62,604 bases of DNA from Candidatus Collierbacteria bacterium (GCA_903886255.1 CAISLM010000073.1:1-62604), one strand, 5' to 3'; shown: positions 15,140 through 53,124, counted from the first letter of the stretch. The notes: generated by a model from the sequence alone, not told the origin. Numbers and translations are program-made.

Positions 15140-15146
15140 GTATCAA

Positions 15147-15175: not shown

Positions 15176-15221
15176 ATCCCATAATTGTTCTAGCCCTTTT
15201 CCAAACAAATGAGGAGGTCAA

Positions 15222-15788: not shown

Positions 15789-15829
15789 TATAATTCACGG
15801 CATCTTGCACCTTAAGGAGGAATAAAAAT

Positions 15830-16036
15830 ATGGCAACCTGTCCATTGATAAAAAGCGCTATTCTAAATGCGATTATTTCGCATCAAGGAGTTCTTACCGC
15901 CAAAGTTTCCATTGAAAATCTCACTGTTCCTATTGATGCTTTGAGCGCCTGTACCAAAACAGCCTGCGCCTTTTGGAATCACGAACAAAATGCTTGTGGT
16001 CAATCAGTTCATCCGATCCCGAACCAAGAAGTCTAA
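15830..16036 (+). CDS. Small Cys-rich hypothetical protein, 68 aa
   Basis: Extended -10 TGATATAAT at 15786-15794; SD AAGGAGG at 15814-15820; CPL...CTKTACAFW...CG. Confidence 0.7.
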   Translation: MATCPLIKSAILNAIISHQGVLTAKVSIENLTVPIDALSACTKTACAFWNHEQNACGQSVHPIPNQEV

Positions 16037-16045
16037 AGGAGAAAA

Positions 16046-16201
16046 ATGCAAACAGATCCAAAACAAAAGCCACCCGAGTCCGATACGGCAGAACAACCCC
16101 AAGAAAGTGATGTTTCGCCATCTGCCGGAATGACCCCGGCCCAAAAAGCCATTTTCTATCCCGGTCCGGACATGCCCAACCCTCCCTCTGAACCTGAATA
16201 A
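16046..16201 (+). CDS. Small Pro-rich acidic protein, 51 aa (below the ORF-track cutoff)
   Basis: SD AAAGGAG 9 nt after the upstream stop; MQTDPKQKPPESDTAEQPQESDVSPSAGMTPAQKAIFYPGPDMPNPPSEPE*; terminator follows directly. Confidence 0.55.
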   Translation: MQTDPKQKPPESDTAEQPQESDVSPSAGMTPAQKAIFYPGPDMPNPPSEPE

Positions 16202-16208
16202 TCATCAC

Positions 16209-16235
16209 GAGCTCCGCCACGGCGGGGCTCTTTTT
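16209..16235 (+). terminator. Intrinsic terminator, near-copy of the rpsG terminator
   Basis: GAGCTCCGCC-ac-GGCGGGGCTC-TTTTT. Confidence 0.85.
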
Positions 16236-16298
16236 ATGTTATCCTTACCCGGCATGGGTGAACCTAAGATTCTAGTCAAAATAATCAAAAAACAAAAA

Positions 16299-18377: not shown

Positions 18378-18425
18378 TATATTTATGAGTAGAAATATTC
18401 GACAGTAACTACGTATAATTCCTTT

Positions 18426-19433: not shown

Positions 19434-19502
19434 AATTCTCTTTTTAAACCTATCTCCTTTTGAGGTTATAATACTGCAGACAAGTCATCAACTATTGTTT
19501 TA

Positions 19503-20765
19503 ATGAATAAAAAATTATTGTTACTTTCAGCCATCATTTCCACCGCCATAATACTTAGTGGTTGTACCATTACAAAATCAGTTTCACCCAATGCTATTCT
19601 CTTGTCTCCAGATACGAATTCAACTTCTCCGGCAGATTCGAATGAGACAGTCACTCCAACAAACACTACTATTGCACCACAGACAAAATTGACCCAAATA
19701 GAGCTAATCTTGGATGATTCAGGCAGCATGGTCGGGTTGGTCGAAGGCAAATCAAAAATTGATATAGCCAAAGAATCTATCGGTAAAATCATTGACGAGC
19801 TAAAAACCAAAGATAATTTGCAGGTAGCTCTCAGAATTTACGGCCATCAAAATAAAGAATGTACTAACTCGGTCTTGGAGTTTCCTATGGGCAAAATTAA
19901 TGCCGACCAGATGAAATCAAAAGTTGTTAATTTAAAACCATTGGGAAGTACCCCCATATCGTATTCGCTAACCGAATCAGTTAAGGATTTCAACAAAACA
20001 ATTCCCGGTGACAAAATGGTAATTTTAGTCACCGATGGTTTGGAAAGCTGTGGTGGAGATCCCTGCGCCGCCGCCAAAGCTCTACTGGCCGGTGGTGTGA
20101 TCAATAAAATGCAAGTTGTTGGTTTTGGTATGAGTAAGACTGAACTCGGAACGTTGCAATGTATCGCTGATCCTTTTAAAGGCCAAGTCGTTGGAGCCAA
20201 CAATTCCACTGAATTTTTATCGGCTATGCAGCAAATTGTCGAAAAAGCGACCACCCAGCCCAATTTTAATGTGTCGGTTATTGGTGCCGATGGAAAACCA
20301 CTTCAGGCCAGTGATATTTGCGTCTACCCCCAGGGTCAAACCGAAACCGAAACCGCCTGTGCCGGTATGTACGCCACTGACTTTGGATTTACTCTTAAAT
20401 CCGGAATTTACGATATAAAGGTTACCAACGGCGGCACCTCGGCCGAAACCTGGCTAAAAAATATCGAAATTGCAGACGGAAAAATCGTCAATAAAATTGT
20501 TTCCTTTGCCGAAGGCAATTTGAAGGTAGATGTTGTTAATGCCTCCGGAGAATCGACCCAGGCCAGTGATATTTGCGTCTACCCCCAGGGTCAAACCGAA
20601 ACCGAAACCGCCTGTGCCGGTATGTTTACTGCCGAATATGAATTTAAGTTAACGCCGGGAATTTACGATTTAAAAGTCAGTACCTATGATGGTACGGGAG
20701 AAAAATGGACCAAAGACGTTGAAATCAAGGCTTCACAGACTGTTTCTCAGAAGATTGCTCTATAG
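19503..20765 (+). CDS. VWA-domain lipoprotein with two C-terminal repeated beta-sandwich domains
   Basis: Lipobox IILSGC; MIDAS LILDDSGSM...GSTP...LVTDG; two QASDICVYPQGQTETETACAGM repeats. Confidence 0.85.
   Translation: MNKKLLLLSAIISTAIILSGCTITKSVSPNAILLSPDTNSTSPADSNETVTPTNTTIAPQTKLTQIELILDDSGSMVGLVEGKSKIDIAKESIGKIIDELKTKDNLQVALRIYGHQNKECTNSVLEFPMGKINADQMKSKVVNLKPLGSTPISYSLTESVKDFNKTIPGDKMVILVTDGLESCGGDPCAAAKALLAGGVINKMQVVGFGMSKTELGTLQCIADPFKGQVVGANNSTEFLSAMQQIVEKATTQPNFNVSVIGADGKPLQASDICVYPQGQTETETACAGMYATDFGFTLKSGIYDIKVTNGGTSAETWLKNIEIADGKIVNKIVSFAEGNLKVDVVNASGESTQASDICVYPQGQTETETACAGMFTAEYEFKLTPGIYDLKVSTYDGTGEKWTKDVEIKASQTVSQKIAL
20304..20370 (+). repeat. Exact 67-bp direct repeat, copy 1
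   Basis: CAGGCCAGTGAT...GCCGGTATGT is identical to 20559-20625. Confidence 0.95.
20559..20625 (+). repeat. Exact 67-bp direct repeat, copy 2
   Basis: Identical to 20304-20370; period 255 bp. Confidence 0.95.
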
Positions 20766-20900
20766 TTTAAATTGCCCAAATTCACCGATTGACCCTAACG
20801 CCACACTTTTAGTTCAACAGGCAAGACGTTTTGTGATTTTTCTACAACAAATTATCCATTTTTCATTGTAATGTAGCTGAATTTAATATATTCTTAAAAT

Positions 20901-21929
20901 ATGAATATCCCAAAAATTAAGACTTTCATATCGTTATCTGTTGTTACAGCTCTTGGTGTCATATCATTCTTGGGTATTAATTACTTAAAAAATTCAAATT
21001 TAATAGATAAAGTTCAAGCAGCCGCAGAAACAATTAACACCTTAAATTATTTTGTTAGTAAAAACCCAAGTATAGAGTTGGTAGATGTAGGAGGTTCCTT
21101 GGGCCAGGTGGTTAGTGGCCAAACAGCCTACTATGTTAAATTTTCTTTGCCAACCAATTACGAAAAATATTCTTGGGATTCAAACTATATCTATTTAAAG
21201 GAAGATAGAAGTGGTGCCCCCAACGCTTACTATACATTTTCTCCGGGAATGTGGATGAAAAGATCCATGAAAGTTGGAGAAAAAATTGTTGTTGCGAACA
21301 ATGCTATTGTCAATTATTCAAACTGTTCCCGCACCACTTCAAGCACCTTTCCCTATACCATGACACTTGAACAACATATCCCTAATTACAACGCCGGCGG
21401 AGACTTGGGAACACAAGATGTTATTGTCCTTAAATACGATTATTACGGAGATTTTGAAAGATTTTATTACAGCAACAAATGGGGGTGGATCAAGTGGCAG
21501 TTAGTGGATAGCAAGGGTGTCGTTAAACAGGAATCAGTTTTTAACAAGATTCTTAAAGTTAAACCTACATTTTCCTCCTCTCTTACTTGTGCAAAATGTG
21601 TTTCCACTACAATTCCTACCAAAATTGCCCCCGGTGCATCAAAGACCGTGACTGTCACTCTTAAGAATGTCGGTGACGTCAGCTGGAATATCAATGCCGC
21701 CAAACCATATAAATTAGGTTCCCAAAGTCCGCAGGACAATCAAGTCTGGGGGCTTGGAAGGGTGGCTTTGCCTACAACTACTAACTCTGGCGGAACACAA
21801 AATTTTACTTTTCAGATAAAGGCTCCTACTACCCCGGGAACTTATTCCAGTCGCTGGCAAATGCTTCAAGATGGAGTGATGTGGTTTGGAGATATTTGCG
21901 GTCCAACCTCGATTAGCGTGAGTAATTAG
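20901..21929 (+). CDS. Secreted or membrane-anchored protein with C-terminal NBR1-Ig-like (FW) domain
   Basis: N-terminal signal/TM; C-terminal PGASKTVTVTLKNVGDVSW...IKAPTTPGTYSSRWQM...WFG. Confidence 0.7.
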   Translation: MNIPKIKTFISLSVVTALGVISFLGINYLKNSNLIDKVQAAAETINTLNYFVSKNPSIELVDVGGSLGQVVSGQTAYYVKFSLPTNYEKYSWDSNYIYLKEDRSGAPNAYYTFSPGMWMKRSMKVGEKIVVANNAIVNYSNCSRTTSSTFPYTMTLEQHIPNYNAGGDLGTQDVIVLKYDYYGDFERFYYSNKWGWIKWQLVDSKGVVKQESVFNKILKVKPTFSSSLTCAKCVSTTIPTKIAPGASKTVTVTLKNVGDVSWNINAAKPYKLGSQSPQDNQVWGLGRVALPTTTNSGGTQNFTFQIKAPTTPGTYSSRWQMLQDGVMWFGDICGPTSISVSN

Positions 21930-21954
21930 CCTTCTGGAGGATTAAATATTTTCT

Positions 21955-22743
21955 CTAAAGATTTTTCAAAAATACCTCAGGGTTATTGAGGAAATCTCGC
22001 ATCAGTTGAAAAGATTCGATATCTTTATATTTAATTGGATGAATTGTGTTGTTGTCGAAAGAATATATTGTTGCTTCCGGTAGGGTGGTAAGAATCGGGG
22101 AGTGGGTGGCGATGATAAATTGCGCGTCCTTTTTAATCATCTCGCGCAACATCAAAACTAATTCCAGTTGGCTGTTAAATGAGAGCGGAGTCTCCGGTTC
22201 ATCCAGAAGATAAAGTCCGCCCGGAACAAACCGCGATTGGAATATTTTTAAGAAAGTTTCTCCATGAGAATTGGCATCAAGATCTGCGCCATATCGGTTT
22301 TCGAATGATTGCTTCTGTCCCAAAACAGCGCCAACGGCTAGTTTTTGTCCATACCCCGAAAATTTCTTGCTAAAACGATCCGCGTTTTTATCCAGTCCGA
22401 TTTTTGTTTTTGCCAAATATTTTGTAAATCCAAAGACATCTTCACTCCGGACAAAGAAACCTTTGTGTGTTCGGATTTTCCATGATAGTTTAAGATTTTC
22501 GGCCAATAACTTTGAAGGAGAAAGAGTATTATCTTGGTCAAGTGATTTTTCGCCAATGGTATGAGAATTGGCTGCCACTGCCAAACTTTCCAAGAAAGTT
22601 GATTTACCTGTGCCATTTTCACCAACCAGAAATGTAATTGGTGACGATAAGTTAATCGATTTCAAACCTCCAATTGTCGGAACGGAAAATGGATATCCGG
22701 AATTTTCCGAAGATATTTTAGTAATTTTTGTCAGGAAAATCAT
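21955..22743 (-). CDS. Stand-alone ABC-type (AAA_21/COG3910-like) ATPase
   Basis: Walker A GENGTGKST, signature-like SHGE, Walker B LLDEPE, IIATHSP; no permease nearby. Confidence 0.85.
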   Translation of the reverse strand: MIFLTKITKISSENSGYPFSVPTIGGLKSINLSSPITFLVGENGTGKSTFLESLAVAANSHTIGEKSLDQDNTLSPSKLLAENLKLSWKIRTHKGFFVRSEDVFGFTKYLAKTKIGLDKNADRFSKKFSGYGQKLAVGAVLGQKQSFENRYGADLDANSHGETFLKIFQSRFVPGGLYLLDEPETPLSFNSQLELVLMLREMIKKDAQFIIATHSPILTTLPEATIYSFDNNTIHPIKYKDIESFQLMRDFLNNPEVFLKNL

Positions 22744-22820
22744 TTACCACTGCATTATAGCTTTTGAAAAACTCATAAAGTATTCATTGACTTTTCAAAC
22801 GATTACAATAATATCAACAT

Positions 22821-23432
22821 ATGGACTCAGATAAACACACAGGACCATCGGGATATACAGAAATTGGTGTATATAACTTATATCAGAGAAAATGGGAATC
22901 TGGACCGATAGGTCCGGCTGCTAAGCCAGCCTCCGAAATAAAAGAAGAAAACAAAGAAACATTTAATCGCATCACTATCGGCGACTCAATTCCCCTCACA
23001 GAAGGTCCCATCACCATCGGTCGTGGCACAGGAGGGCCTGTCGAAGGATATCAAACTTATCAAATTTCCGAACTGAACGAGAATCCGGAGTTTCGTTGCG
23101 TCAACAATTACGGAGCGGTTATTAGTCTGGATACTGATGGTTTTTTAAATATCTCCAAAGCAGTTGGTATCAAAGCTTCCAAGATGCGCGAGCCTTACTC
23201 AACTGATCCTGATACAAACTATAGCTGGATTGATGTCCGAGATTCCGATAGGAGTTACCCGCCTAGTGTTGACGGCGGTTATCGCATAAGCGCCGATAAA
23301 GTTGACCTTGTGATTGTTAGGGCAAAGTCACGCCAGGGTGGCGATCAAGTATATAGTTATACCTTGAAATGGGAGAACGATAAAAAATCTTTCCTTCTCG
23401 CAGCCATCAGCCCTGATCCGCTCAAAAAATAA
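22821..23432 (+). CDS. Hypothetical protein, possible degenerate FHA fold
   Basis: PITIGRG...CVNNYGAVISLDTDGFLNI; promoter TTGACT-16 nt-TAATAT at 22787-22814. Confidence 0.55.
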   Translation: MDSDKHTGPSGYTEIGVYNLYQRKWESGPIGPAAKPASEIKEENKETFNRITIGDSIPLTEGPITIGRGTGGPVEGYQTYQISELNENPEFRCVNNYGAVISLDTDGFLNISKAVGIKASKMREPYSTDPDTNYSWIDVRDSDRSYPPSVDGGYRISADKVDLVIVRAKSRQGGDQVYSYTLKWENDKKSFLLAAISPDPLKK

Positions 23433-23473
23433 AGTTTGATAGTTTTAAAACTTTATTTGTTATACTTTATGAC

Positions 23474-24094
23474 ATGCCTGTACCATTCCTAGTCAAAAAC
23501 GTCAAAAACTTAAGTTACAAAGATAACAGCTCCACAATTAGTTGGGGAAAATTTGTCGAATGGTATTCGACACAAAAAGCAAAGTCTGTCTTTAATAGGG
23601 TAAAGCCATATATTAAAGGAAAAAATCTTTTAGACGTCGGTTTTGGCGCCGGCACTGTTGCCAAATTAATGGTCAACTCAGGATACAAAGTTGAAGGCAT
23701 CGATGTTGCTGACTTAAGTATTTATAAAGATTTAAAGGCCACTCTTTATGATGGTAATAAAATGCCATTTAAAAATAATTCCTTTGATACGGCTGTAATT
23801 GTTCATGTTTTGCACCACTGCAAAGAACCCCTTGAGGTTCTAAAAGAAGCCAAAAGATGTGCCAAGAGAGTCGTTTTTATTGAGGATACATATCGGAACG
23901 AATTCGAAAAAAAGATCGTGTCGTTTAATGACAACATTGGCAACTGGGAATTCTATCAACACCCTTATTTAAAAGACACTGTCTGGAAATCTACTATTAA
24001 AAAGATGGGAATGAAATTAATTTTTCAAACATCCTGGACAGAAAGATCACCCATTTTTTTACCTTCCCGTTACTGTCTCTGCGTAATAGAGTAA
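23474..24094 (+). CDS. Class I SAM-dependent methyltransferase
   Basis: LLDVGFGAG, GIDV, YDGNKMPFKNNSFD, VLHH...VLKEAKR. Confidence 0.9.
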   Translation: MPVPFLVKNVKNLSYKDNSSTISWGKFVEWYSTQKAKSVFNRVKPYIKGKNLLDVGFGAGTVAKLMVNSGYKVEGIDVADLSIYKDLKATLYDGNKMPFKNNSFDTAVIVHVLHHCKEPLEVLKEAKRCAKRVVFIEDTYRNEFEKKIVSFNDNIGNWEFYQHPYLKDTVWKSTIKKMGMKLIFQTSWTERSPIFLPSRYCLCVIE

Positions 24095-24207
24095 CATCAT
24101 TTCCACTTCCACGCCTAAACTATGGTAAAATTAGCCTTGTGTAAATTCTGGCCTTTTGGTCAGGTTTATCTCGTCAAAATAAATAATTAAAGAAAAACTT
24201 AAAAAGT

Positions 24208-35062: not shown

Positions 35063-35410
35063 ATGATTCAAAACACCTTAACCTCTAAGGCCAGAAGACA
35101 GCACCGCGTACGTGCCAAGCTTTTAGCCGGAACCACTCTCCCCAGACTCACTGTATTGCGTTCCAACCAACACATCGGAGCCCAGATTATCAACCCCAAT
35201 GGTAACGTCATCGCTGCCGCTAACTCAAAGTCCCTCAAAAACTTTAAGGGAACCAAAGTGGCTCAAGCTACCGAAGTTGGTATGCTTCTTGGTAAAGTCG
35301 CCAAAGAGAAAAAAGTCGCCAATGTCGTTTTTGATCGCGGTTCCTATCGTTTCCATGGTCGCGTCAAAGCCTTAGCTGAAGCTGTTAGAGAATCAGGTAT
35401 AAAATTCTAA
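35063..35410 (+). CDS. rplR: 50S ribosomal protein L18
   Basis: PRLTVLRSNQHI, FDRGSYRFHGRVKALAE. Confidence 0.99.
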   Translation: MIQNTLTSKARRQHRVRAKLLAGTTLPRLTVLRSNQHIGAQIINPNGNVIAAANSKSLKNFKGTKVAQATEVGMLLGKVAKEKKVANVVFDRGSYRFHGRVKALAEAVRESGIKF

Positions 35411-35420
35411 TCTAAAATAT

Positions 35421-35951
35421 ATGGCATACTCAGGAAATACAAATAACAATAGTAACAGAGGTGGCGGTCGTCCCGCCCCAGAAGGTTTTGAGCAAGTTCT
35501 TCAAATTCGCCGTGTCAGTAAAAAGACCCAAGGCGGTTCAAACGTTTCCTTTTCAGCCCTAGTCGTTACCGGAGACAAAAAAGGTAAGGTTGGTCTAGGT
35601 CTGGCCAAGGCTCCAAACGTCGCAGACGCCATCAAAAAAGCCATCCGCCTTAGTAATCGTGATCTCGTTCAGGTTCCTCTGGTGAATGGTACAATCCCTT
35701 ACGAAACCATATCCAAGTATGGTGCCAGTAAAGTTCTCTTTCGCCCAGCCCCTAAAGGTACAGGCATCATTGCCGGTTCCTCTATCCGTGCTGTCGTCGA
35801 AGCTGCCGGTATTACCGACATTGTCTGTAAAGCCCTAGGCTCAAACAATAAAACTTCAAACGCCAGAGCAACCTTCAAAGCCCTCAAACAGGTCGAATCT
35901 CTAGCCAAGAAATACATCCTCTTAAAAGAAATTAAAGCCAAAGCCAAATAA
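35421..35951 (+). CDS. rpsE: 30S ribosomal protein S5
   Basis: RVSKKTQGG, GKVGLG, PAPKGTGIIAG. Confidence 0.99.
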   Translation: MAYSGNTNNNSNRGGGRPAPEGFEQVLQIRRVSKKTQGGSNVSFSALVVTGDKKGKVGLGLAKAPNVADAIKKAIRLSNRDLVQVPLVNGTIPYETISKYGASKVLFRPAPKGTGIIAGSSIRAVVEAAGITDIVCKALGSNNKTSNARATFKALKQVESLAKKYILLKEIKAKAK

Positions 35952-35956
35952 CAACT

Positions 35957-35995
35957 CGTCATTGCGAGTCTCGTATTCGAGCCGAAGCAATCCAG
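35957..35995 (+). repeat. GTCATTGC...GCAATC palindromic element, copy E1 (rpsE|rplO)
   Basis: CGTCATTGCGAGTCTCG-TATT-CGAGCCGAAGCAATCCAG. Confidence 0.9.
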
Positions 35996-36011
35996 AATAT
36001 AAATAAAACAT

Positions 36012-36461
36012 ATGAACCTAAGTAATCTTCCCAAAACAGTCGAAACCGGTAAAAAACGCCTTGGTCGTGGCTACGGCTCCGGAGTTGGCGGTCACACTGT
36101 TGGTCGTGGCCAAAAAGGTCAAAAAACCCGTGGCACCATGCCTCTCTGGTTCGAAGGTGGACAGCTTCCAATCATCCGTCGTACTCCTTTCATCAAAGGC
36201 AAGCACCGCTTCCAGGTCATTAATCTTCAGCCCATCACTGTTAACTTCGACATTCTTACTAAGTATTTTGAAGACAAGGCTGTTATCGACTCTGCTTCTC
36301 TCATTAAGACTCTCAAAATCAGCGATAAAGAGGCCAAAAGAGGTTTCAAGATCATCCGCACCGGCAAGCTTGAAAAAGCTCTCGAGGTTAACGTTCCTGC
36401 CACAGCTGGAGCCATCAAAGCAATCGAAACCGCCGGCGGCAAATATACCTTCTCCAAATAA
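36012..36461 (+). CDS. rplO: 50S ribosomal protein L15
   Basis: KRLGRGYGSG, GRGQKGQKTR, FEGGQLP; no rpmD between rpsE and rplO. Confidence 0.99.
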   Translation: MNLSNLPKTVETGKKRLGRGYGSGVGGHTVGRGQKGQKTRGTMPLWFEGGQLPIIRRTPFIKGKHRFQVINLQPITVNFDILTKYFEDKAVIDSASLIKTLKISDKEAKRGFKIIRTGKLEKALEVNVPATAGAIKAIETAGGKYTFSK

Positions 36462-36471
36462 CTCCTTATTC

Positions 36472-36522
36472 CTCATTGCGCCCGCCCGCCTATGGAGGGA
36501 GCGTACTCGAGCGGCAATCCAG
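36472..36522 (+). repeat. Palindromic element, divergent copy E2 (rplO|cassette island)
   Basis: CTCATTGCG...GCGTACTCGAGCGGCAATCCAG. Confidence 0.75.
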
Positions 36523-36556
36523 TCCCTGGTTTCGCGTTGTAATATAACCTATATAG

Positions 36557-36576
36557 TGGTAGAATACCCTAACTTA
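36557..36576 (+). promoter_or_regulatory. Extended -10 with shared CCCT-AACTTA module
   Basis: TGGTAGAAT-ACCCT-AACTTA; covered by the inverted repeat GTGGTA/TACCAC (36556-36580). Confidence 0.55.
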
Positions 36577-36681
36577 CCACCTTGACATTTTAAGACTTGT
36601 CGAAGATCTTCAACGGCCACGAACTACCGTCTTGACGTGTACAGTGAAGCCAATTCCACTAATTTTTTTCAGGAGAGAAAA

Positions 36682-37050
36682 ATGTCAGATATCCCCAATA
36701 GATTTTCCTTATTAAAGGGCCTGGTTATGGTCACGCCAGGCATAGTCACAAACTGGTATCCCAACGTCGCCTTCTTTGACACTGTCACTGGAGAACAAAA
36801 GATTATCCTCGACGGTCCCAACACAGCCGTGCTTTATAAAGCACTAAAATACCTGGCCGACAAAGAAGACCGTTCCAGTGATGAGGTTTTAGACTCCGTA
36901 GTTGTTAGTGGATTAAAATATCATCTGTCCCAGGTTAGAGGATACCTCTATCTCTCTCCTGCTGGCAAATTTTGGAATAACTGGGCCGCCTCTATCGCAG
37001 TCCTCGATATTTCCCATATGAATAAACTGATCCAGACCATCGAATCCTAA
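36682..37050 (+). CDS. Hypothetical protein, 122 aa (cassette 1); distant paralog of 38091
   Basis: SD AGGAG before ATG 36682; ALKYLA...GYLYLSPAG...FW. Confidence 0.7.
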   Translation: MSDIPNRFSLLKGLVMVTPGIVTNWYPNVAFFDTVTGEQKIILDGPNTAVLYKALKYLADKEDRSSDEVLDSVVVSGLKYHLSQVRGYLYLSPAGKFWNNWAASIAVLDISHMNKLIQTIES

Positions 37051-37063
37051 AACGATCACTCGC

Positions 37064-37088
37064 CCCACCCTCAAACGGGTGGGTTTTT
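37064..37088 (+). terminator. CCCACCC/GGGTGGG hairpin terminator, copy 1
   Basis: CCCACCC-tcaaac-GGGTGGG-TTTTT. Confidence 0.85.
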
Positions 37089-37090
37089 AC

Positions 37091-37112
37091 TGATATAATA
37101 CCCTGTAACTTA
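37091..37112 (+). promoter_or_regulatory. Extended -10 with shared CCCT-AACTTA module
   Basis: TGATATAAT-ACCCT-GT-AACTTA; SD GAGGAGG at 37120-37126. Confidence 0.65.
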
Positions 37113-37131
37113 AAATTCTGAGGAGGTTTCT

Positions 37132-37335
37132 GTGGATATCTTGAAGCAAAACCAACTAATTGCTGGATTCTTCTCTGTTTTTGGCATCCTGTTCTATTTT
37201 ATTTTTGTCCATATCGACAGCTTTATTGCTTTTAGCCTTCTCGTTTGCGGCGTCCTCTGCGGCATCATGTTTATCATTTTTACTATCTGGCGTTTCATCA
37301 TCAAACCCTGGCGCTTTTCCAAAAACAGGAAATAA
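37132..37335 (+). CDS. Small 2-TM membrane protein, 67 aa (cassette 2)
   Basis: GTG start with strong SD; two hydrophobic helices and a basic tail. Confidence 0.7.
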   Translation: MDILKQNQLIAGFFSVFGILFYFIFVHIDSFIAFSLLVCGVLCGIMFIIFTIWRFIIKPWRFSKNRK

Positions 37336-37381
37336 AATACTCCACACCCACCCCACAATTTTCCCTCAGATTGCAGAAATT

Positions 37382-37404
37382 CCCACCCCACCAGGGTGGG
37401 TTTT
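37382..37404 (+). terminator. CCCACCC/GGGTGGG hairpin terminator, copy 2
   Basis: CCCACCC-cacca-GGGTGGG-TTTT; an extra half-site CCCACCCCAC lies at 37347-37356. Confidence 0.82.
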
Positions 37405-37564
37405 GCTATTTAAACACCTCAAAATACAGTATAATTCAGCCATCCGAAAACCTTAACATTCAGTTTGAGGAGAAACATGATTCTCACCACGATTGAGACC
37501 AGACTGGTCAAAGATCCCGCCAATCACCTGTTTTTTCCAAGCAAAAACCATAAAGGAGATTCTT

Positions 37565-38086
37565 ATGAAACGCCTCTTGTTTCTCACATGGATAATCTAT
37601 CTGATCGTGGGTGTCATCCTGGTTGTCACCAAATTCTTACCATCTTGTAATCCTGGCAGAGGCACAGGTTTGGAATGTGATTTCTCCGTCGGCAAACTCG
37701 CCAAAATCGATTCACCTGCCAAGATCATCATCTCCAGTTTCGACCCCTTCACTTTTGGCTACCGCAGCGCGTCGGTCGATGGTTGGGAAAAAGTCACCCC
37801 TCTAAATATCTATGGATTCTATTACCTAACCATAAACACCAAGGGACCGGTTGAAATGCAAATGTTCCAATCAGGCGGAGATACCAATGTTCCCTACATC
37901 AGGGTTAGTCAAATAACTGAAGGTCAATATCCATCGCTTTCTGTTTCCCGAACTTGGTACCACCCGCTTACCCAATTAGTCCAATGGTATTTATTTCCGG
38001 TGTTACTAATCGATATCGCTCTTTTTATCGCTTTTGCTTGGATCTTTTTTCACCGATTTTCAAAGCTGGGTTCCTCCGAGGAATAA
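37565..38086 (+). CDS. Membrane protein, 173 aa, with N- and C-terminal TM helices (cassette 3)
   Basis: SD AAAGGAG before ATG 37565; Cys pair in the extracellular loop. Confidence 0.72.
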   Translation: MKRLLFLTWIIYLIVGVILVVTKFLPSCNPGRGTGLECDFSVGKLAKIDSPAKIIISSFDPFTFGYRSASVDGWEKVTPLNIYGFYYLTINTKGPVEMQMFQSGGDTNVPYIRVSQITEGQYPSLSVSRTWYHPLTQLVQWYLFPVLLIDIALFIAFAWIFFHRFSKLGSSEE

Positions 38087-38090
38087 CACC

Positions 38091-38432
38091 ATGGATTATA
38101 AGCTTGTCCAAGCTGGTCCCCTTACCGAGCCCAATGAAGGTTTACTCATCGCCCTTAACTATCTCGCCAGTTTAGCTATTCAGTCGGGGACAGAAAAATT
38201 GGGCGACAAAAATCTACTCGTGAAAGACAATATACTCTATGTTAGATACAGCTACGGTCATCTAGCGATCAAACCCTCCGGAGCTACGGACACTCAAAAA
38301 CATTTTTGGGTTGATAACGATCTTCTTCCACTCCCCGGACTCTTTTCTATCGATCTAGAGGATATCCGTTCCATCGTTCGTCACCTCGACAAATTTCTGC
38401 TTCTGGCCGGTATCGACACTACCCGATTCTAA
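38091..38432 (+). CDS. Hypothetical protein, 113 aa; distant paralog of 36682
   Basis: SD GAGGA before ATG 38091; ALNYLA...GHLAIKPSG...FW. Confidence 0.7.
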   Translation: MDYKLVQAGPLTEPNEGLLIALNYLASLAIQSGTEKLGDKNLLVKDNILYVRYSYGHLAIKPSGATDTQKHFWVDNDLLPLPGLFSIDLEDIRSIVRHLDKFLLLAGIDTTRF

Positions 38433-38439
38433 ATTAATT

Positions 38440-38465
38440 ACCCACCCTTACCGGGCGGGTTTTTT
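38440..38465 (+). terminator. CCCACCC/GGGCGGG hairpin terminator, copy 3
   Basis: ACCCACCC-ttacc-GGGCGGGT-TTTTT. Confidence 0.8.
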
Positions 38466-38486
38466 CTGGTGTAAAATCTCTCCACC

Positions 38487-38993
38487 ATGTCTCCCGAGAA
38501 AGAAATTGATCATATCGAAAGAGAAAAAATATTCATTGGCCCTGTCGAAGTCGATTGTGATCCCAGTATGATCGCCCACTGTCTAGATCCATATCCTCGT
38601 CACCCCCATGGCTGCCCCAATTGGGGAAAAAAGGAGGGCTGTCCTCCCCATGTCCGTTTCTTTCCTCATGTCTATTCAACCGACGTTCATATTGCTGCCG
38701 TCCGCTTTAATTTTGCCGATTATCTAGAGCTTCGCCATCGTGATCATCCGAGCTGGACAGATAGAGCTCTGCGCAACCCTCTTTACTGGCAGGGTCATAT
38801 CCGTCACGAATTGAATCAATTTTTATTTGAATATCTCTCGACCCACCCGGAAATTCACGGTGAAATCGTTTTTAATCCCGAAGCCATGGGCGTCAATCTC
38901 TTTGTCACCTGTAAAAAGGCAGGCCTTAATCTCGAACAAACTCCTCGAAATAATGTTTACAAGATTGCCTTAATCGCGAACAAGTTAAACTAA
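38487..38993 (+). CDS. DUF2284-like predicted metal-binding protein
   Basis: CPNWGKKEGCPP and PEAMGVNLFVTCKKAG. Confidence 0.65.
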   Translation: MSPEKEIDHIEREKIFIGPVEVDCDPSMIAHCLDPYPRHPHGCPNWGKKEGCPPHVRFFPHVYSTDVHIAAVRFNFADYLELRHRDHPSWTDRALRNPLYWQGHIRHELNQFLFEYLSTHPEIHGEIVFNPEAMGVNLFVTCKKAGLNLEQTPRNNVYKIALIANKLN

Positions 38994-39022
38994 ATTCACT
39001 CCTAACTGATAAAATAAAACCA

Positions 39023-40306
39023 ATGGATAATTTATTAGCTCCCCTACGTGCTCTTCTCAAGATCAAAGAACTTCGTAAACGATTAATTTTTACTGCCATA
39101 GTTATCGCTGTCTTCCGTTTAGTTGCCCACATCCCCGCTCCTGGTATTAATCTGGTTGCTCTCAAAAGTTTATTCAATGGCTCTGCCTTTCTTTCTTTAC
39201 TTGACGTTTTTTCTGGCGGTACCCTCGGCAACTTTTCCATTATGGCTCTTGGTTTAAACCCCTATATTAATGCCTCCATTATTTTCCAAATGCTCGGCAT
39301 GGTTGTTCCCCAGCTTGAAGCTCTTCAAAAAGAAGGGGATTATGGTCGTCAGAAAATTAACCAATACACCCGTCTTCTTACCATTCCTCTTTGTTTCCTC
39401 CAAGGTATCGCCCTTATTTTCCTTCTTCAGCGCCAAGGTTTAACCACGACAGCCGATCCGCTTCAGCTTGCCTCGATTGTCTTTACTCTTGCCGCCGGAA
39501 CGTCTCTCCTCATCTGGCTCGGTGAACAATTAAACGACTATGGTTTGGGCAATGGCATTAGTTTAATTATCTTTGTCGGTATCGTCAGTCGTATTCCCGT
39601 CGCCGCCATGCAGCTTTTTGCGACCATTGATCAAACCAAAATATTTACTTATATTATTTTCCTTTTCTTTGCTGTTGCTGCTATTTATGCGATTGTCCGT
39701 ACCGGTGAAGCAGTTCGTGAAATTCCTATCCAGTCCGCTCGCCGCGGTGGAAATTCCTACGGAGCCGTCGCCAGCAGCCATCTCCCTCTTCGTTTAAATC
39801 AAGCCGGCGTAATCCCGATTATCTTTGCCGTTTCTTTTATGCTCATGCCCAGTATGATTAGCAAAGTTCTAGCCGGAGTTAATCAACCCGCTCTTGCCGG
39901 TTTTGCCACGACAGTTAGTAACATCCTCGCCCCCAATTCTGTTTTCTACAATGTTCTTTACTTTGTCCTTGTTGTTGCCTTTACTTATTTTTATACCGCC
40001 GTTGTCTTTAATCCGGAAAAAATTGCCAAAGACCTCCGCTCGTCCGGATCATTTATTCCCGGCATCAGACCCGGTCCAAATACTGTTGATTATTTAAACT
40101 TTGTTCTAACCCGTATTACTTTGGTTGGTGCTAGTTTCCTGGGGTTAGTTGCTGTCCTTCCGTCAATTATGTCCAGCTTCACCGGCGTCACTTCACTCGC
40201 TATCGGTGGTACTAGTGTCTTAATTGTCGTATCCGTCGTTCTCGAAATCCTCAAGACCATCAACTCCCAGCTTTACATGTACAGTTACGACAAGTTCCTC
40301 GACTAA
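39023..40306 (+). CDS. secY: Preprotein translocase SecY
   Basis: SIMALGLNPYINASII, GNGISLIIF, AGVIPIIFA, FIPGIRPG; extended -10 TGATAAAAT at 39007-39015. Confidence 0.99.
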   Translation: MDNLLAPLRALLKIKELRKRLIFTAIVIAVFRLVAHIPAPGINLVALKSLFNGSAFLSLLDVFSGGTLGNFSIMALGLNPYINASIIFQMLGMVVPQLEALQKEGDYGRQKINQYTRLLTIPLCFLQGIALIFLLQRQGLTTTADPLQLASIVFTLAAGTSLLIWLGEQLNDYGLGNGISLIIFVGIVSRIPVAAMQLFATIDQTKIFTYIIFLFFAVAAIYAIVRTGEAVREIPIQSARRGGNSYGAVASSHLPLRLNQAGVIPIIFAVSFMLMPSMISKVLAGVNQPALAGFATTVSNILAPNSVFYNVLYFVLVVAFTYFYTAVVFNPEKIAKDLRSSGSFIPGIRPGPNTVDYLNFVLTRITLVGASFLGLVAVLPSIMSSFTGVTSLAIGGTSVLIVVSVVLEILKTINSQLYMYSYDKFLD

Positions 40307-40309
40307 CGT

Positions 40310-40345
40310 CGTCATTGCGAAGCACGGAGTGCTGTGGCAATCCAG
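40310..40345 (+). repeat. Palindromic element copy E3a (secY|adk)
   Basis: CGTCATTGCGA-AGCAC-gga-GTGCT-GTGGCAATCCAG. Confidence 0.9.
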
Positions 40346-40355
40346 TTCCCTCCTT

Positions 40356-40392
40356 GTCATTGCGAGGCTCGTACTCGAGCCGAAGCAATCTC
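40356..40392 (+). repeat. Palindromic element copy E3b (secY|adk)
   Basis: GTCATTGCGA-GGCTCG-tact-CGAGCC-GAAGCAATCTC. Confidence 0.9.
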
Positions 40393-40421
40393 ACGCCACA
40401 AAATACATGTAAAATATTGAT

Positions 40422-40976
40422 ATGAACTTAATTATTCTCGGTCCTCAAGGATCCGGTAAGGGTACTCAAGCAAAACTGATCGCCGAAAAATTTGGCCTGA
40501 CACACATTGCCAGTGGTGACCTTCTTCGAGCCGAAGCCGAAAGTGGTTCTGAAATGGGCAAAGTCTTCGAAAAAATATTGGCCAGTGGCGAACTAGTTCC
40601 TTTTGACACAGTTCTCAAAGTTATTGAACCCGTCCTCCTAAAATCAAAGGGTGGTTTTATTCTCGATGGCACACCCCGAGACGTCAGTCAGGCCGAATAT
40701 CTCGATTCATTTCTTACGGATTTAAAAATGAACATCGATAAAGTTATCCTTCTGGATATCCCTCGCGAAGTCAGTTTGGATCGGCTTGCCAAAAGAGCCA
40801 TTCTAGAGGGAAGATCAGACGATACTCCAGAGGCAATTGACGAAAGGTTGCAGCTTTATCACAACAAAACAGTTCCCGTCATCGATCACTACAAAAACCA
40901 GGGGAAACTTTTAGTTGTAGATGGAACTCTTGACATTCAAACTATTTTTCAAGACATCGTCAGTAAACTCAACTAG
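40422..40976 (+). CDS. adk: Adenylate kinase, short-LID type
   Basis: GPQGSGKGTQA, SGDLLR, LDGTPR, GRSDD. Confidence 0.95.
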   Translation: MNLIILGPQGSGKGTQAKLIAEKFGLTHIASGDLLRAEAESGSEMGKVFEKILASGELVPFDTVLKVIEPVLLKSKGGFILDGTPRDVSQAEYLDSFLTDLKMNIDKVILLDIPREVSLDRLAKRAILEGRSDDTPEAIDERLQLYHNKTVPVIDHYKNQGKLLVVDGTLDIQTIFQDIVSKLN

Positions 40977-41010
40977 TCATTGCGAAGCACGGAGTGCTGT
41001 GGCAATCCAG
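40976..41010 (+). repeat. Palindromic element copy E4a (adk|map), identical to E3a
   Basis: GTCATTGCGAAGCACGGAGTGCTGTGGCAATCCAG; begins on the G of the adk stop codon. Confidence 0.9.
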
Positions 41011-41020
41011 TTCCGCTTCC

Positions 41021-41051
41021 CGTCATTGCAACGTTCACGCGCGGTGATCCG
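41021..41051 (+). repeat. Degenerate palindromic element copy E4b
   Basis: CGTCATTGCAACG-TTCAC-gcgcg-GTGATCCGG. Confidence 0.55.
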
Positions 41052-41075
41052 GAAAATAGCATAAAATATACCCAA

Positions 41076-41810
41076 ATGACTAAACTCGAAGCCATGACCG
41101 AAGGCGGGAAACGACTCGGTTGGATCAAGGGCCGGCTCGCCGAAGCCGTCAAAGTTGGCGTAACCCCTTTAGAAATCGATTCTTTATGCGATCGTTTGAT
41201 TATGGAAAAAGGTAACAAAGCTTCCTTCAAAATGGAACCGGGTTACCACTATGCCACTTGCATCAATGTAAATGAAGGCATGGTCCATGGTATTCCCAAT
41301 TCAATTCCTTTCAAGCCCGGAGATGTGGTCAAAATCGATCTTGGACTTTTTAATCATGGTTACCATCTCGATACTGCCATCTCAGTGCAAGTTCCCCCAA
41401 TCGACCCCAAAATAACGGAATTTTTAGAAACCGGTCGCAGAGCTGAAAAAGCTGCCATTTCCGTTGCCATTCCCGGAAACACTATCTACGACATAGGCGA
41501 GACGATGCAGCAAGTCATTGAAGGGGATGGTTTTAATGTAGTTCGCGATCTAACCGGCCATGGTATAGGAAAACAAATGCACATGGACCCCTATATTCCC
41601 TGCTTTGCTGATAAGCACAACAAAAAGTACGTTCTCTCTATCGACCAAACTATTGCTATCGAAACAATGTATATGATGGGCGATTGGCACTTAGTTGAAG
41701 ATCCCGACGGCTGGACCCTGTCCACTCAAGACAAATCCATGACAGGTTATTTTGAAGAAACAGTCTATATCACAGCAGACGGCCCCATCATTCTGACCGA
41801 GATTAATTAG
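41076..41810 (+). CDS. map: Methionine aminopeptidase type I
   Basis: CINVNEGMVHGIP, KIDLG, DTA, GHGIG, IETM, FEETV. ATG 41076; the ORF-track extension is repeat-derived. Confidence 0.96.
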   Translation: MTKLEAMTEGGKRLGWIKGRLAEAVKVGVTPLEIDSLCDRLIMEKGNKASFKMEPGYHYATCINVNEGMVHGIPNSIPFKPGDVVKIDLGLFNHGYHLDTAISVQVPPIDPKITEFLETGRRAEKAAISVAIPGNTIYDIGETMQQVIEGDGFNVVRDLTGHGIGKQMHMDPYIPCFADKHNKKYVLSIDQTIAIETMYMMGDWHLVEDPDGWTLSTQDKSMTGYFEETVYITADGPIILTEIN

Positions 41811-50975: not shown

Positions 50976-51015
50976 GTCATTGCGCGATTCGGTACTCCGA
51001 ACCAAAGCAATCCAG
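50976..51015 (+). repeat. Palindromic element copy E5 (rpsK|rpsD) with compensatory stem changes
   Basis: GTCATTGCGCGA-TTCGG-tact-CCGAA-CCAAAGCAATCCAG. Confidence 0.85.
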
Positions 51016-51041
51016 AATATAAAAATAAAACTAAACAAAAC

Positions 51042-53068: not shown

Positions 53069-53106
53069 GTCATTGCGAGTCTCGTAATCGAGCCGAAGCA
53101 ATCCAG
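53069..53106 (+). repeat. Palindromic element copy E6 (rplQ|rplM)
   Basis: GTCATTGCGAGTCTCG-TAAT-CGAGCCGAAGCAATCCAG; one mismatch to E1. Confidence 0.9.
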
Positions 53107-53124
53107 GAAATACAAATAAAACAT

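What the first reader, a model, noticed from the sequence alone, without database searches (positions are those of the whole stretch)
36462..39022. Array of small orphan cassettes inside the spc operon, punctuated by a repeated CCCACCC/GGGTGGG hairpin
Seen: rplO and secY, normally adjacent, are 2561 bp apart. Five small genes fill the gap in the pattern [promoter-SD-ORF(s)]-hairpin, repeated. The hairpin CCCACCC-N5/6-GGG(T/C)GGG-T4-6 occurs at 37064, 37382 and 38440, with an extra half-site CCCACCCCAC at 37347. Each full hairpin is followed within about 20 nt by a -10 box for the next unit. The left edge carries a REP-like element. Inference: an integron-like cassette array that gains or loses genes by recombination at a GC-rich terminator instead of attC, giving a variable locus in highly expressed DNA. 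No recombinase gene is in the window.
Basis: partly seen in the sequence, partly recalled or inferred. Interest (0 to 1): 0.72.

Follow-up and report, generated by a model that had tools for sequence, protein, structure and literature searches.

The report
Swappable gene island splitting ribosomal operon
In one family of tiny uncultivated bacteria (Collierbacteria), the normally fused junction between ribosomal gene rplO and secY holds a fast-changing set of small self-contained genes, each ended by the same terminator hairpin; the set differs even between co-existing strains and seems to be exchanged by ordinary recombination, not by an integron.

Summary
rplO and secY lie 2561 bp apart, against a median of 6 bp in 49 other bacteria. 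The gap holds four promoter-ORF-terminator units (5-6 small ORFs) and three CCCACCC..GGGYGGG+T-run hairpins.

The locus is truly hypervariable. In about 30 Collierbacteria genomes the gap is 556-6328 bp. It holds 14 recurring, mutually unrelated gene families plus about 40 singletons, in different combinations and orders. Sister genomes with 98-99% identical SecY carry almost unrelated sets.

The hairpin is a canonical intrinsic terminator, but a locus-specific one. It makes up 31 of 42 terminators inside the islands and 3 of 47 outside, and it follows at least 11 unrelated families. Homology blocks between genomes start and end at these hairpin/promoter junctions.

In the source lake a second strain shares both flanks (99.6% upstream). 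It carries a different island plus a secY only 81% identical, which is whole-block replacement by homologous recombination.

No integrase, attC or promoterless cassettes were found. One relative holds an unrelated IS200 element.

Verdict: this is a flexible genomic island of moron-like units inside the spc operon. The integron reading is only partly supported. Whether the hairpin itself is a recombination site remains open.

The parts
36012..36461 (+). rplO (L15). It is the conserved left anchor of the island.
   Evidence: Pfam Ribosomal_L27A. DNA homology to all relatives ends at its stop codon.
36474..36522 (+). REP-like nested hairpin (CATTGCG...GCAATCCAG). It is a variant copy of the window's GTCATTGCG..GCAATCCAG family and fits the head and tail of Ssn-related motifs (NTS/SRM).
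   Evidence: Alignment of 7 copies; coordinates; motif CGTCATTCCCGCGMAVGCGGGAATCYRG in PMC11893778.
36537..36565 (+). Promoter-like site of unit 1 (TTGTAA-17-TGGTAGAAT). The joint with the alternative strain allele lies at 36557/36558.
36682..37050 (+). o1, 122 aa, family C. It is a small, fast-evolving, lineage-restricted family with a predicted PUR/Whirly-like fold (two beta-beta-beta-beta-alpha repeats).
   Evidence: AF2 pLDDT 90. Foldseek matches to Pur-alpha, TM 0.52-0.55. Only 39 cluster representatives in 1.84 billion proteins.
37064..37088 (+). Terminator hairpin 1 plus T5.
   Evidence: z -2.6. It lies 14 nt after the o1 stop codon.
37092..37118 (+). -10 box and leader GATATAATACCCTGTAACTTAAAATTC of unit 2. 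The same 27 nt follow a hairpin in metagenome locus L150, between different genes.
37132..37335 (+). o2, 67 aa, a hydrophobic orphan with a GAGGAGG SD and a GTG start. It is not called by public gene callers.
37347..37356 (+). Half-site CCCACCCCAC. It is a direct repeat of the 5' arm of hairpin 2 and may be the scar of a decayed hairpin.
37382..37404 (+). Terminator hairpin 2 plus T4.
   Evidence: z -2.9.
37430..37435 (+). TATAAT of unit 3.
37477..37650 (+). o3, 57 aa, a doubtful ORF or leader peptide with an SD. It overlaps o4 and has no relatives.
37565..38086 (+). o4, 173 aa, family H. It has N- and C-terminal transmembrane segments.
   Evidence: Relatives at 36-44% identity, always in this gap.
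38091..38432 (+). o5, 113 aa, family B. It lies 4 nt after o4, so it is probably co-transcribed with it.
   Evidence: AF2 pLDDT 80 with no fold match.
38441..38465 (+). Terminator hairpin 3 (A.C mismatch) plus T6. Homology to relatives that keep the o6 gene starts here.
38467..38477 (+). Extended -10 box TGGTGTAAAAT of unit 4. It ends 10 nt before the o6 ATG, so the mRNA is probably leaderless or nearly so. The box is conserved in L003 and in the alternative allele.
38487..38993 (+). o6, 168 aa, family A. It is a DUF2284-type Cys/His metal-binding protein (HPxGCPNWxxKxGCPP) and the most conserved resident of the island. No terminator separates it from secY.
39007..39015 (+). TGATAAAAT, a -10-like box 7 nt before the secY ATG.
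39023..40306 (+). secY, the right anchor across species. In the co-existing strain it is part of the replaced block.
40311..40390 (+). Dimer of the REP/SRM-like element at secY|adk. The right joint of the strain-level replacement lies somewhere between here and about 41005.

Best explanation
What it is: the rplO-secY interval of Collierbacteria is a flexible genomic island, a fixed hotspot between two highly conserved genes. It is built from autonomous 'moron-like' transcription units. Each unit has an (often extended) -10 promoter, an SD, one or two small ORFs and a rho-independent terminator.

The hairpins: the CCCACCC..GGGTGGG hairpins are the terminators of these units. They insulate each unit, and secY, from read-through.

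Turnover runs on the host's general recombination and works at two scales:
1. Whole-block replacement by homologous recombination anchored in the conserved flanks. This is shown. A co-existing strain has the same flanks but a different island, and its secY is only 81% identical.
2. Gain, loss and reordering of single units, with joints in the 30-50-nt terminator/T-run/-10 junctions. These junctions are the only sequence shared between otherwise unrelated units. The position of the joints is shown. That the junction homology drives the recombination, through short-homology or homology-facilitated illegitimate recombination after DNA uptake, is inferred.

No dedicated recombinase is involved. 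The cargo is mostly small, soluble, lineage-restricted proteins of unknown role. They include a PUR/Whirly-like putative nucleic-acid binder (o1) and a DUF2284 metal-binding protein (o6).
For: - Variability: the gap is 556-6328 bp in 25 relatives.
- Content: there are 14 families plus about 40 singletons, 91% of them on the operon strand, in mosaic orders. The window reads C. H B A, L106 reads H C, and L150 reads H E C.
- Speed: sister genomes have unrelated islands. Examples are L004/L005, L025/L124 and L020/L021.
- Unit structure: hairpins lie 7-20 nt after stop codons. In 54 of 69 cases a -10-like box follows within 45 nt, against a background of 0.20.
- Locus-specific hairpin: 31/42 inside versus 3/47 outside, p 2e-11. 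The identical 18-mer follows 5 unrelated families.
- Block boundaries at junctions:
  - L004/L005: the right joint falls exactly at the start of the hairpin.
  - L005 versus L002: an IS200 element plus unit E163 lies between two hairpin copies.
  - The A block runs from hairpin to hairpin in L025, L124 and L125.
  - L106/L026: homology starts right after the hairpin.
  - L124: a gene is inserted between the T-run and the -10 box.
- Strain level: L082 and L153 are 99.6% identical to the window up to 36557 and divergent after it.
- Unitig depths show that both flanks are shared by the two strains. In X3 the depths are 19.5 upstream, 14.5 across the block and 20.9 downstream. In X4 they are 13.8, 9-12.4 and 13.4, with the alternative branch at 3.5.
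- No recombinase was found.
- Island GC (44.0%) equals that of the flanks.
Against: - Why unrelated units share one hairpin sequence is not explained by ordinary terminator function. No within-genome homogenisation was detected (permutation p 0.29).
- Joints at the junctions would also be seen if selection simply removed any event that breaks a unit. The hairpin edges make up nearly half of the short spacers, so the coincidence does not prove that recombination happens there.
- The rest of the genome could not be searched for the hairpin or for recombinases.
- No transcript data exist, so the promoters and terminators are predictions.
- The right joint of the strain-level replacement is located only by unitig depth.
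Confidence: 0.6

Rival explanations
1. Integron-like or otherwise site-specific cassette platform. The CCACCC hairpin (as DNA, possibly single-stranded) would be the recombination site of a dedicated enzyme encoded elsewhere in the genome, for example a tyrosine recombinase, an HUH/Y1 enzyme or a hairpin-specific nuclease. Units would be captured, excised and reordered at that site.
For: - The hairpin type is concentrated in the island.
- It is shared by at least 11 unrelated families.
- Block boundaries coincide with it.
- 14 of the 58 exact matches in all JGI metagenomes are this one locus.
- A 10-nt half-site and a hairpin remnant at an insertion joint look like scars.
- Identical hairpin-plus-promoter junctions join different genes in the window and in L150.
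Against: - No recombinase was found in the window ORFs checked or in any island.
- The one Y1 transposase (L005) belongs to an IS200/IS605 element with different end hairpins and occurs in only one locus.
- The hairpins have all the features of intrinsic terminators and none of attC.
- The hairpin loop varies with the upstream gene in the L106/L026 comparison.
- The observed strain-level exchange has its left joint in a promoter, not at a CCACCC hairpin.
- The same 22-mer also serves as a terminator in about 44 unrelated contexts.
Confidence: 0.13
2. Exchange blocks defined by the REP/SRM-like hairpins (GTCATTGCG..GCAATCCAG). An Ssn-type ssDNA nuclease would cut incoming single-stranded DNA at these motifs. 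Imported and recombined tracts would then begin and end next to them, and the rplO|island and secY|adk copies would delimit the replaceable block.
For: - The replaced block in the co-existing strain starts 35 nt after the left copy (36474-36522; joint at 36557/8). It ends between 40340 and about 41005, where three copies lie.
- The motif fits the NTS/SRM head GTCATT and tail AATCYRG. SsnA cuts ssDNA at NTS and modulates transformation in Neisseria (PMC11893778).
Against: - No GIY-YIG motif was found in the window, and the genome could not be searched.
- Unitigs break at any repeat, so the right joint is only coarsely placed.
- In most relatives the post-rplO element is an ordinary GGCCCC..GGGGCC terminator, not this repeat.
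- The idea explains the block boundaries but not the internal cassette shuffling.
Confidence: 0.12
3. Ordinary explanation: a static, lineage-specific insertion whose hairpins are just the organism's generic terminators, or an assembly artefact.
For: - The hairpins are textbook terminators.
- The same sequence is used convergently in many unrelated organisms.
- The window's other terminators also have C-rich 5' arms.
Against: - Content and order differ in every relative and between co-existing strains.
- Only 3 of 47 terminators outside the island are of this type.
- The window sequence is reproduced 100% in independent assemblies.
Confidence: 0.03

Closest known systems
Phage 'morons' (independent transcription units inserted between genes of a phage operon; PMC3594210)
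   Same: Each unit is an extra gene with its own promoter and its own factor-independent terminator. It is wedged between two genes of a long, otherwise conserved gene cluster and is spread horizontally. Units of unrelated content occupy the same position in related genomes.
   Different: The units are chromosomal, lie in the S10-spc-alpha ribosomal cluster and are not in a phage. Several units are stacked in an array. They share one hairpin type across unrelated units.
Replacement/additive flexible genomic islands of aquatic prokaryotes (Lopez-Perez et al. 2014, PMC4033161); by my own recollection also the SAR11 hypervariable region HVR2 placed inside the rRNA gene region
   Same: The position is fixed between conserved core genes in all members of the group. 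Gene content differs between near-identical strains of one population. Exchange is by homologous recombination in the flanks, and the imported allele is highly divergent.
   Different: The island is very small (0.6-6 kb) and built from monocistronic units of small orphan proteins rather than glycosylation or surface-polysaccharide clusters. It lies inside the ribosomal-protein superoperon. In the case caught here the swapped block includes the essential secY.
Integrons (IntI, attI, attC cassettes, Pc promoter)
   Same: It is an array of short, mostly single-gene units. They are co-oriented, punctuated by a repeated hairpin-forming site and vary between strains.
   Different: There is no intI and no attI. 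The hairpins are 18-20-nt perfect stems plus a T-run instead of 57-141-bp imperfect attC sites. Each unit carries its own promoter.
NTS/Ssn-related motifs with Ssn GIY-YIG ssDNA nucleases (Chenal et al. 2025, PMC11893778)
   Same: This applies only to the REP-like element at the left edge and its copies at secY|adk. They are oriented hairpin repeats with a GTCATT head and an AATCYRG tail, lie between genes and flank a block that is exchanged between strains.
   Different: The stem is ATTGC-type with a nested inner hairpin. No ssnA gene was seen in the window. The CCCACCC hairpins are unrelated to this motif.
REP/RAYT and IS200/IS605 (HUH Y1 transposases acting on DNA hairpins)
   Same: Short GC-rich hairpins are repeated after genes. 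An IS200/IS605 element sits in the island of one relative (L005).
   Different: The CCACCC hairpins lack the conserved 5' tetranucleotide head of REPs and always carry a T-run. The IS has different end hairpins (CCCCGCAC..GTGCGGGG). There is no Y1 gene in the window.

Membership tests
Integron | An adjacent intI tyrosine recombinase gene | tested here: not met
   Pfam scans found no recombinase in the island ORFs, in 10 non-ribosomal window ORFs or in about 30 island ORFs of relatives. The one exception is an IS200 Y1 transposase in L005. The whole genome was not searchable.
Integron | attC sites: 57-141-bp imperfect palindromes with R''/L''-L'/R' boxes and extrahelical bases | tested here: not met
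   The repeats are 18-20-nt perfect (or one-mismatch) stems with 4-6-nt loops followed by T4-T7. IntegronFinder itself was not available.
Integron | Promoterless cassettes expressed from a common Pc promoter | tested here: not met
   A -10-like box follows 54 of 69 hairpins within 45 nt, against a background of 0.20. An extended -10 follows 25 of 69, against 0.04. In the window, boxes lie at 36557, 37094, 37430 and 38467.
Rho-independent (intrinsic) terminator | A GC-rich stem-loop directly followed by a T-run, just downstream of a stop codon on the coding strand | tested here: met
   The distance from the stop codon is 9-47 nt in the window and 7-20 nt in most relatives.
Rho-independent (intrinsic) terminator | Transcripts end at the T-run | not testable with these tools
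   No RNA run holds the stretch.
Moron-like autonomous transcription unit | Own promoter plus gene plus own terminator, inserted between genes that are adjacent in relatives | tested here: met
   Sequence features. rplO and secY are adjacent in 49 other genomes. Residence in a phage genome does not apply.
Flexible genomic island (replacement type) | The same chromosomal position in all members, with different gene content between closely related strains | tested here: met
   Two co-existing strains carry C. H B A and C' X A' F.
Flexible genomic island (replacement type) | Exchange by homologous recombination in conserved flanks | tested here: met
   The left flank is 99.6% identical over 6.5 kb up to 36557. 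Unitig depths show that both flanks are shared and the 3.8-kb block is not. The right joint is only coarsely placed.
Ssn-related motif (NTS/SRM), left-edge REP-like element only | An oriented hairpin repeat with a (C)GTCATT head, a palindrome and an AATCYRG tail | tested here: met
   The consensus of 7 window copies is GTCATTGCGAGGCTCGTA.TCGAGCCGAAGCAATCCAG, compared with the NTS motif in PMC11893778. The copy at 36474 is a variant that lacks the GT of the head.
Ssn-related motif (NTS/SRM), left-edge REP-like element only | A cognate ssnA (GIY-YIG) gene in the genome | tested here: inconclusive
   No GIY..YIG motif appears in the six-frame translation of the window. The rest of the genome was not searchable.
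REP/RAYT | A conserved 5' head (GTAG-like) before the palindrome, and a RAYT gene flanked by REPs | tested here: not met
   The CCACCC hairpins have variable 5' context. There is no Y1 gene in the window. The L005 Y1 gene is a typical IS200/IS605 tnpA.
PUR/Whirly-like fold (o1, family C) | Two beta-beta-beta-beta-alpha repeats forming a PUR domain | tested here: inconclusive
   The AF2 model has pLDDT 90 and exactly this topology. Foldseek best hits are Pur-alpha repeats I-II, with E 2.5e-3 and TM 0.52-0.55. There is no sequence-level match, and binding was not tested.
DUF2284 (PF10050; o6, family A) | A match to the Pfam model and the conserved Cys/His motif | tested here: met
   The window protein scores 23.2 bits, just under the cut-off of 25. 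Most of its 169 homologues carry a precomputed PF10050 hit. Cys32/43/52/142 and His39/87/104 are invariant.

The most novel reading that the evidence does not exclude
The hairpin/T-run/-10 junction (consensus CCACCCCTCACCGGGTGG-T6-TGnTAnAAT) may be a true recombination site. It would belong to an integrase-less cassette-exchange system that Collierbacteria use to capture, drop and reorder small genes in a dedicated, highly expressed platform inside the spc operon. The terminator would double as portable homology, or as the target of a not-yet-identified hairpin-recognising enzyme. Together with the REP/SRM-like repeats that bound the replaceable block, this would be a functional analogue of an integron built from transcription signals.
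Probability: 0.15. Interest if true: 0.85.

Novelty: new variant of a known kind. Interest (0 to 1): 0.6.

Why it matters
- The S10-spc-alpha cluster is the most syntenic gene block in bacteria. It is also the standard marker set for placing uncultivated lineages such as the CPR.
- A hotspot of gene exchange in its middle shows where a roughly 1-Mb genome with few mobile elements keeps its flexible gene pool. The hotspot is present across a whole candidate family, turns over faster than 1-2% SecY divergence, and in one population carries secY along.
- It explains contig breaks and marker discordance at this point in metagenome bins. One example is L026, whose L15 is 87% but whose SecY is 78% identical to the window.
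- It offers a compact natural system for asking whether shared transcription signals can serve as recombination junctions.
- The cargo (PUR-like, DUF2284 and many orphan proteins) gives a short list of candidates for strain-specific functions, such as phage or host interaction, in episymbiotic bacteria.

Tried and rejected
- Family and database searches on the island proteins gave nothing useful: Pfam, PHROGs, NCBIfam and PADLOC, Rfam on 35300-41200, and PDB sequence profiles for families A, B and C.
- Families as diverged paralogues: hhalign all-against-all of 14 families found no relationship. BLASTP of o1 against o5 gave E 0.028. The o5 model has no fold match. An array made by tandem duplication and divergence is therefore not supported, apart from within-family tandem pairs such as L026 C-C and L006 I-I.
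- Concerted evolution of hairpins within a genome: the permutation test was negative (p 0.29).
- Foreign base composition: island GC equals that of the flanks.
- Word-indexed homologue search found nothing for o1 and only two 42-43% relatives for o4.
- The first estimate of the right joint of the alternative allele, at about 37915, was withdrawn. It is only a coverage gap with no loose ends.
- Viral contigs with the exact hairpin gave 3 unrelated hits.
- There are no RNA runs.
- Literature searches for Collierbacteria, rplO/secY hypervariable and spc operon insertion in CPR found no description.
No genome-wide hairpin census or recombinase search was possible.


Full report
**Observation.** rplO (36012-36461) and secY (39023-40306) are identified by Pfam and lie 2561 bp apart. 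The pattern CCCACCC-N3-8-GGGYGGG has three sites in the 62.6-kb window, at 37064, 37382 and 38441, against 0.02 expected from shuffles. All three sit in the gap, each is followed by T4-T6, and each folds as a clean hairpin. The half-site at 37347, the -10-like boxes after each hairpin and the REP-like element at 36474-36522 are all present. The second TATAAT lies 30 nt, not about 20 nt, after its hairpin.

The gap reads as four units:
- promoter 36537-36565, then o1, then hairpin 1;
- TATAAT 37094, then o2, then hairpin 2;
- TATAAT 37430, then (o3) o4-o5, then hairpin 3;
- TGGTGTAAAAT 38467, then o6. No terminator follows o6; secY comes next, behind a TGATAAAAT box.

The stretch is reproduced at 100% identity in independent ENA and Logan assemblies.

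**Organism and baseline.** A scan of species-representative genomes with SecY returned 30 Collierbacteria (Microgenomates, CPR) loci at 75-90% SecY identity and 50 loci from other phyla. In 49 of the latter the rplO-secY distance is -24 to 140 bp, median 6. 'Normally adjacent' therefore holds.

**The locus is hypervariable.** In 25 Collierbacteria relatives that hold both genes the gap is never closed and ranges from 556 to 6328 bp. Cataloguing ORFs of at least 40 aa in 33 islands gave 119 ORFs, 91% of them on the operon strand. They fall into 14 recurring families plus about 40 singletons.
- The window reads C(o1) . (o2) H(o4) B(o5) A(o6).
- Each of C, H, B and A recurs in other genomes, but in other combinations and orders: L106 is H C, L150 is H E C, L003 is C E A, L014 is B H K F, and L009 starts with A.
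- Profile-profile comparison finds no relationship between the families. The array is therefore not one diverged paralogue family.
- On a SecY tree, sister genomes have almost unrelated islands. L004 [I] and L005 [C I IS200 E] have about 98% identical SecY. L025 [B E A D.] and L124 [G A x J] have about 99%. L020 and L021 share nothing.
- DNA homology between the window and every relative stops at the rplO stop codon. It resumes about 30 nt before secY, or exactly at hairpin 3 where the o6 gene is kept.

**The hairpin.** In the relatives nearly every island gene has a hairpin plus T-run 7-20 nt after its stop codon. These are intrinsic terminators.
- Most share the stem CCACCC/GGGTGG, with consensus CCACCCCTCACCGGGTGG.
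- With one uniform finder, 31 of 42 internal island terminators are of this type, against 3 of 47 in the flanking 10 kb and the rest of the window (Fisher p 2e-11).
- All 28 strict matches in 560 kb lie in the island, which is 11% of the sequence.
- rplO's own terminator is another conserved type, GGCCCC..GGGGCC.
- The type follows at least 11 unrelated families, and the identical 18-mer follows families C, E, G, H and M.
- A -10-like box follows 54 of 69 hairpins within 45 nt, against a background of 0.20.

Two cautions apply. First, the counts are not phylogenetically independent, and only the neighbourhood, not whole genomes, could be sampled. Second, an exact 22-mer scan of JGI metagenomes found 58 loci. 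Fourteen are this Collierbacteria locus, but about 44 come from unrelated organisms (GC 0.30-0.64), where the same hairpin is simply a terminator. The sequence as such is therefore not exotic. What is unusual is its concentration in this one locus.

**Where blocks begin and end.**
- L004 and L005 are 92% identical in both flanks. Identity ends just after the rplO terminator and resumes exactly at the first base of the last CCACCC hairpin.
- Relative to L002, L005 carries an IS200 element and unit E163 between two hairpin copies.
- The A-gene block of L025, L124 and L125 is alignable from one hairpin to the next and no further.
- Homology between L106 and L026 starts right after a hairpin whose loop differs between the two. 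There the hairpin travels with the upstream gene.
- L124 has a minus-strand gene inserted precisely between the T-run and the next -10 box, with a hairpin remnant at the right joint.
- The window and L150 share an identical 27-nt promoter/leader plus hairpin between different genes.

Joints thus lie at the junctions. Because the spacers are short and any joint inside a unit would be selected against, this coincidence does not by itself show that recombination takes place in the hairpin.

**An exchange caught in the population.**
- A contig from another sample of the same lake study (L082) is 99.6% identical to the window over 6.5 kb of ribosomal genes and then diverges.
- A 3-kb contig (L153), found through an 87%-identical homologue of o6, overlaps L082 by 403 identical bases and gives the whole alternative island. 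It reads REP-like element, C'(124 aa), X(109), CCCACCC hairpin + TGGTGTAAAAT, A'(171), a split F-family gene, then a secY that is only 81% identical in DNA.
- The two alleles are identical through 36557 and differ from 36558, inside the extended -10 box of unit 1.
- In lake run X4 a unitig branches at that point into the alternative sequence, at depth 3.5 against 9 for the window allele.
- In two runs the block 36528-40340 has lower depth than both flanks. X3 shows 14.5 against 19.5 and 20.9. X4 shows 9-12.4 against 13.8 and 13.4.

So two co-existing strains share both flanks and differ in a block of about 3.8 kb that holds the island and secY. This is replacement by homologous recombination with a donor of another species-level lineage. 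The right joint is placed only between 40340 and about 41005.

**Recombinases and integron membership.** No recombinase domain was found in the island ORFs, in ten non-ribosomal window ORFs, or in about 30 island ORFs of relatives. There is one exception. L005 holds an IS200/IS605 element: Y1_Tnp at E 6.5e-26, an HVH motif, and its own end hairpins CCCCGCAC..GTGCGGGG. It is inserted between a CCACCC hairpin and the next promoter and occurs in that locus alone. It shows that the junction tolerates insertions, not that it is serviced by a Y1 enzyme. The hairpins fail the attC definition, the units are not promoterless, and no intI is present, so integron membership is not met.

**Cargo.**
- o1 (family C) gives a confident model (pLDDT 90) of two beta-beta-beta-beta-alpha repeats. 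Its best structural matches are Pur-alpha repeats I-II (TM 0.52-0.55) and uncharacterised phage proteins. The family has only 39 cluster representatives among 1.84 billion proteins. Members are 21-25% identical between species whose SecY is nearly 90% identical.
- o6 (family A) is a DUF2284-type Cys/His protein with 169 homologues. It is well conserved. In WWE3 bacteria it lies beside DNA-alkylation repair genes rather than in the ribosomal cluster.
- o4 (family H) has two transmembrane segments. Most other families are small and soluble.
- Family D has a Peptidase_M28 hit. L024 holds Rieske, RnfD-like and methyltransferase genes.
- No defence-system model matches.

**The left-edge repeat.** The element at 36474-36522 belongs to a family (GTCATTGCGAGGCTCGTA.TCGAGCCGAAGCAATCCAG) found at six further operon junctions of the window. 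Its head and tail fit the NTS/Ssn-related motifs that GIY-YIG Ssn nucleases cut on single-stranded DNA, and which modulate transformation in Neisseria (PMC11893778). Copies flank the block that is replaced between the two strains. That is suggestive, but no ssnA-like motif is in the window.

**Reading.**
- Best supported: a flexible genomic island of moron-like units (PMC3594210) at a fixed hotspot. It is renewed by homologous recombination in conserved flanks (PMC4033161 describes the kind) and by unit-level changes at the shared terminator/promoter junctions.
- Shown: the variability, the unit structure, the locus-specific hairpin, the position of the joints, and one whole-block replacement.
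- Inferred: that the shared junction is itself the recombination substrate, and that DNA enters by transformation.
- Unexplained: why unrelated units keep the same hairpin.

No paper describing this locus was found. Two earlier notes of this scan on other Collierbacteria genomes reached a similar picture. I count them as leads, not as support.

Noticed in passing
window 35957-36000, 36474-36522, 40311-40342, 40356-40390, 40976-41007, 50976-51020, 53069-53110: A family of oriented nested hairpins, GTCATTGCGAGGCTCGTA.TCGAGCCGAAGCAATCCAG, sits at ribosomal-operon gene junctions. Its head and tail fit the NTS/Ssn-related motifs of PMC11893778. Copies bound the block that is replaced between the two lake strains.
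   Followed up: partly
window 15116-24207: A second, larger island (about 9 kb) separates rpsG from fusA in the str operon. It starts with two near-identical terminators of another type (GCCCCGCC..GGCGGGGC at 15117 and 16209). It holds a helicase, a nucleotidyltransferase, VWA and Ig-like proteins and an AAA/ABC-type ATPase on the minus strand.
   Followed up: no
L005:8740-9330 (JBAQNH010000002.1): A complete IS200/IS605-type element lies inside the rplO-secY island of a relative. It has a Y1 transposase (HUH motif HVHLQI) flanked by subterminal hairpins AACCCCGCAC..GTGCGGGG and CCCCGGAC..GTCCGGGG. It is inserted between a CCACCC terminator and the next promoter.
   Followed up: yes
L158:4320-6289 (WWE3 contig, ERZ27254749): Outside Collierbacteria the DUF2284 homologue of o6 lies between an Ogt-like DNA-binding protein (PF01035) and a DNA_alkylation repair protein (PF08713). 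This hints at a DNA-repair-related role for this uncharacterised metal-binding family.
   Followed up: no
L009, L016, L017, L019, L025, L030, L152 (secY-adk interval): In several relatives the secY-adk junction, closed in the window apart from two REP-like copies, also holds 0.5-2.2 kb of extra DNA. One example is a 158-aa gene in L152. More than one junction of the cluster is therefore a hotspot.
   Followed up: no
window 38467-38489 and 39007-39025: The -10-like boxes of o6 and secY end only 10 and 7 nt before the ATG and no SD is present, which suggests leaderless or near-leaderless mRNAs. Units 1-3 have SD sequences.
   Followed up: no
L026 (DAOORK010000001.1): Marker discordance: L15 is 87% but SecY only 78% identical to the window, and SecY sits on a very long branch. 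This would be expected if secY was swapped together with the island, as in the lake strain.
   Followed up: partly
window 36417-38335 (contig starts in public assemblies): Public metagenome contigs of this organism often begin or end inside the island, at 36417, 36528, 37922, 38039 and 38335. Contigs carrying the alternative allele are all 3.4 kb or shorter. The hotspot fragments assemblies of the ribosomal marker block.
   Followed up: partly
L012, L013, L014, L021 (family B members of 226-240 aa): Long members of the o5 family are internal tandem duplications of the roughly 110-aa domain. Several islands hold tandem pairs of one family: L026 C-C, L006 I-I, L011 B-B, L023 N-N.
   Followed up: no
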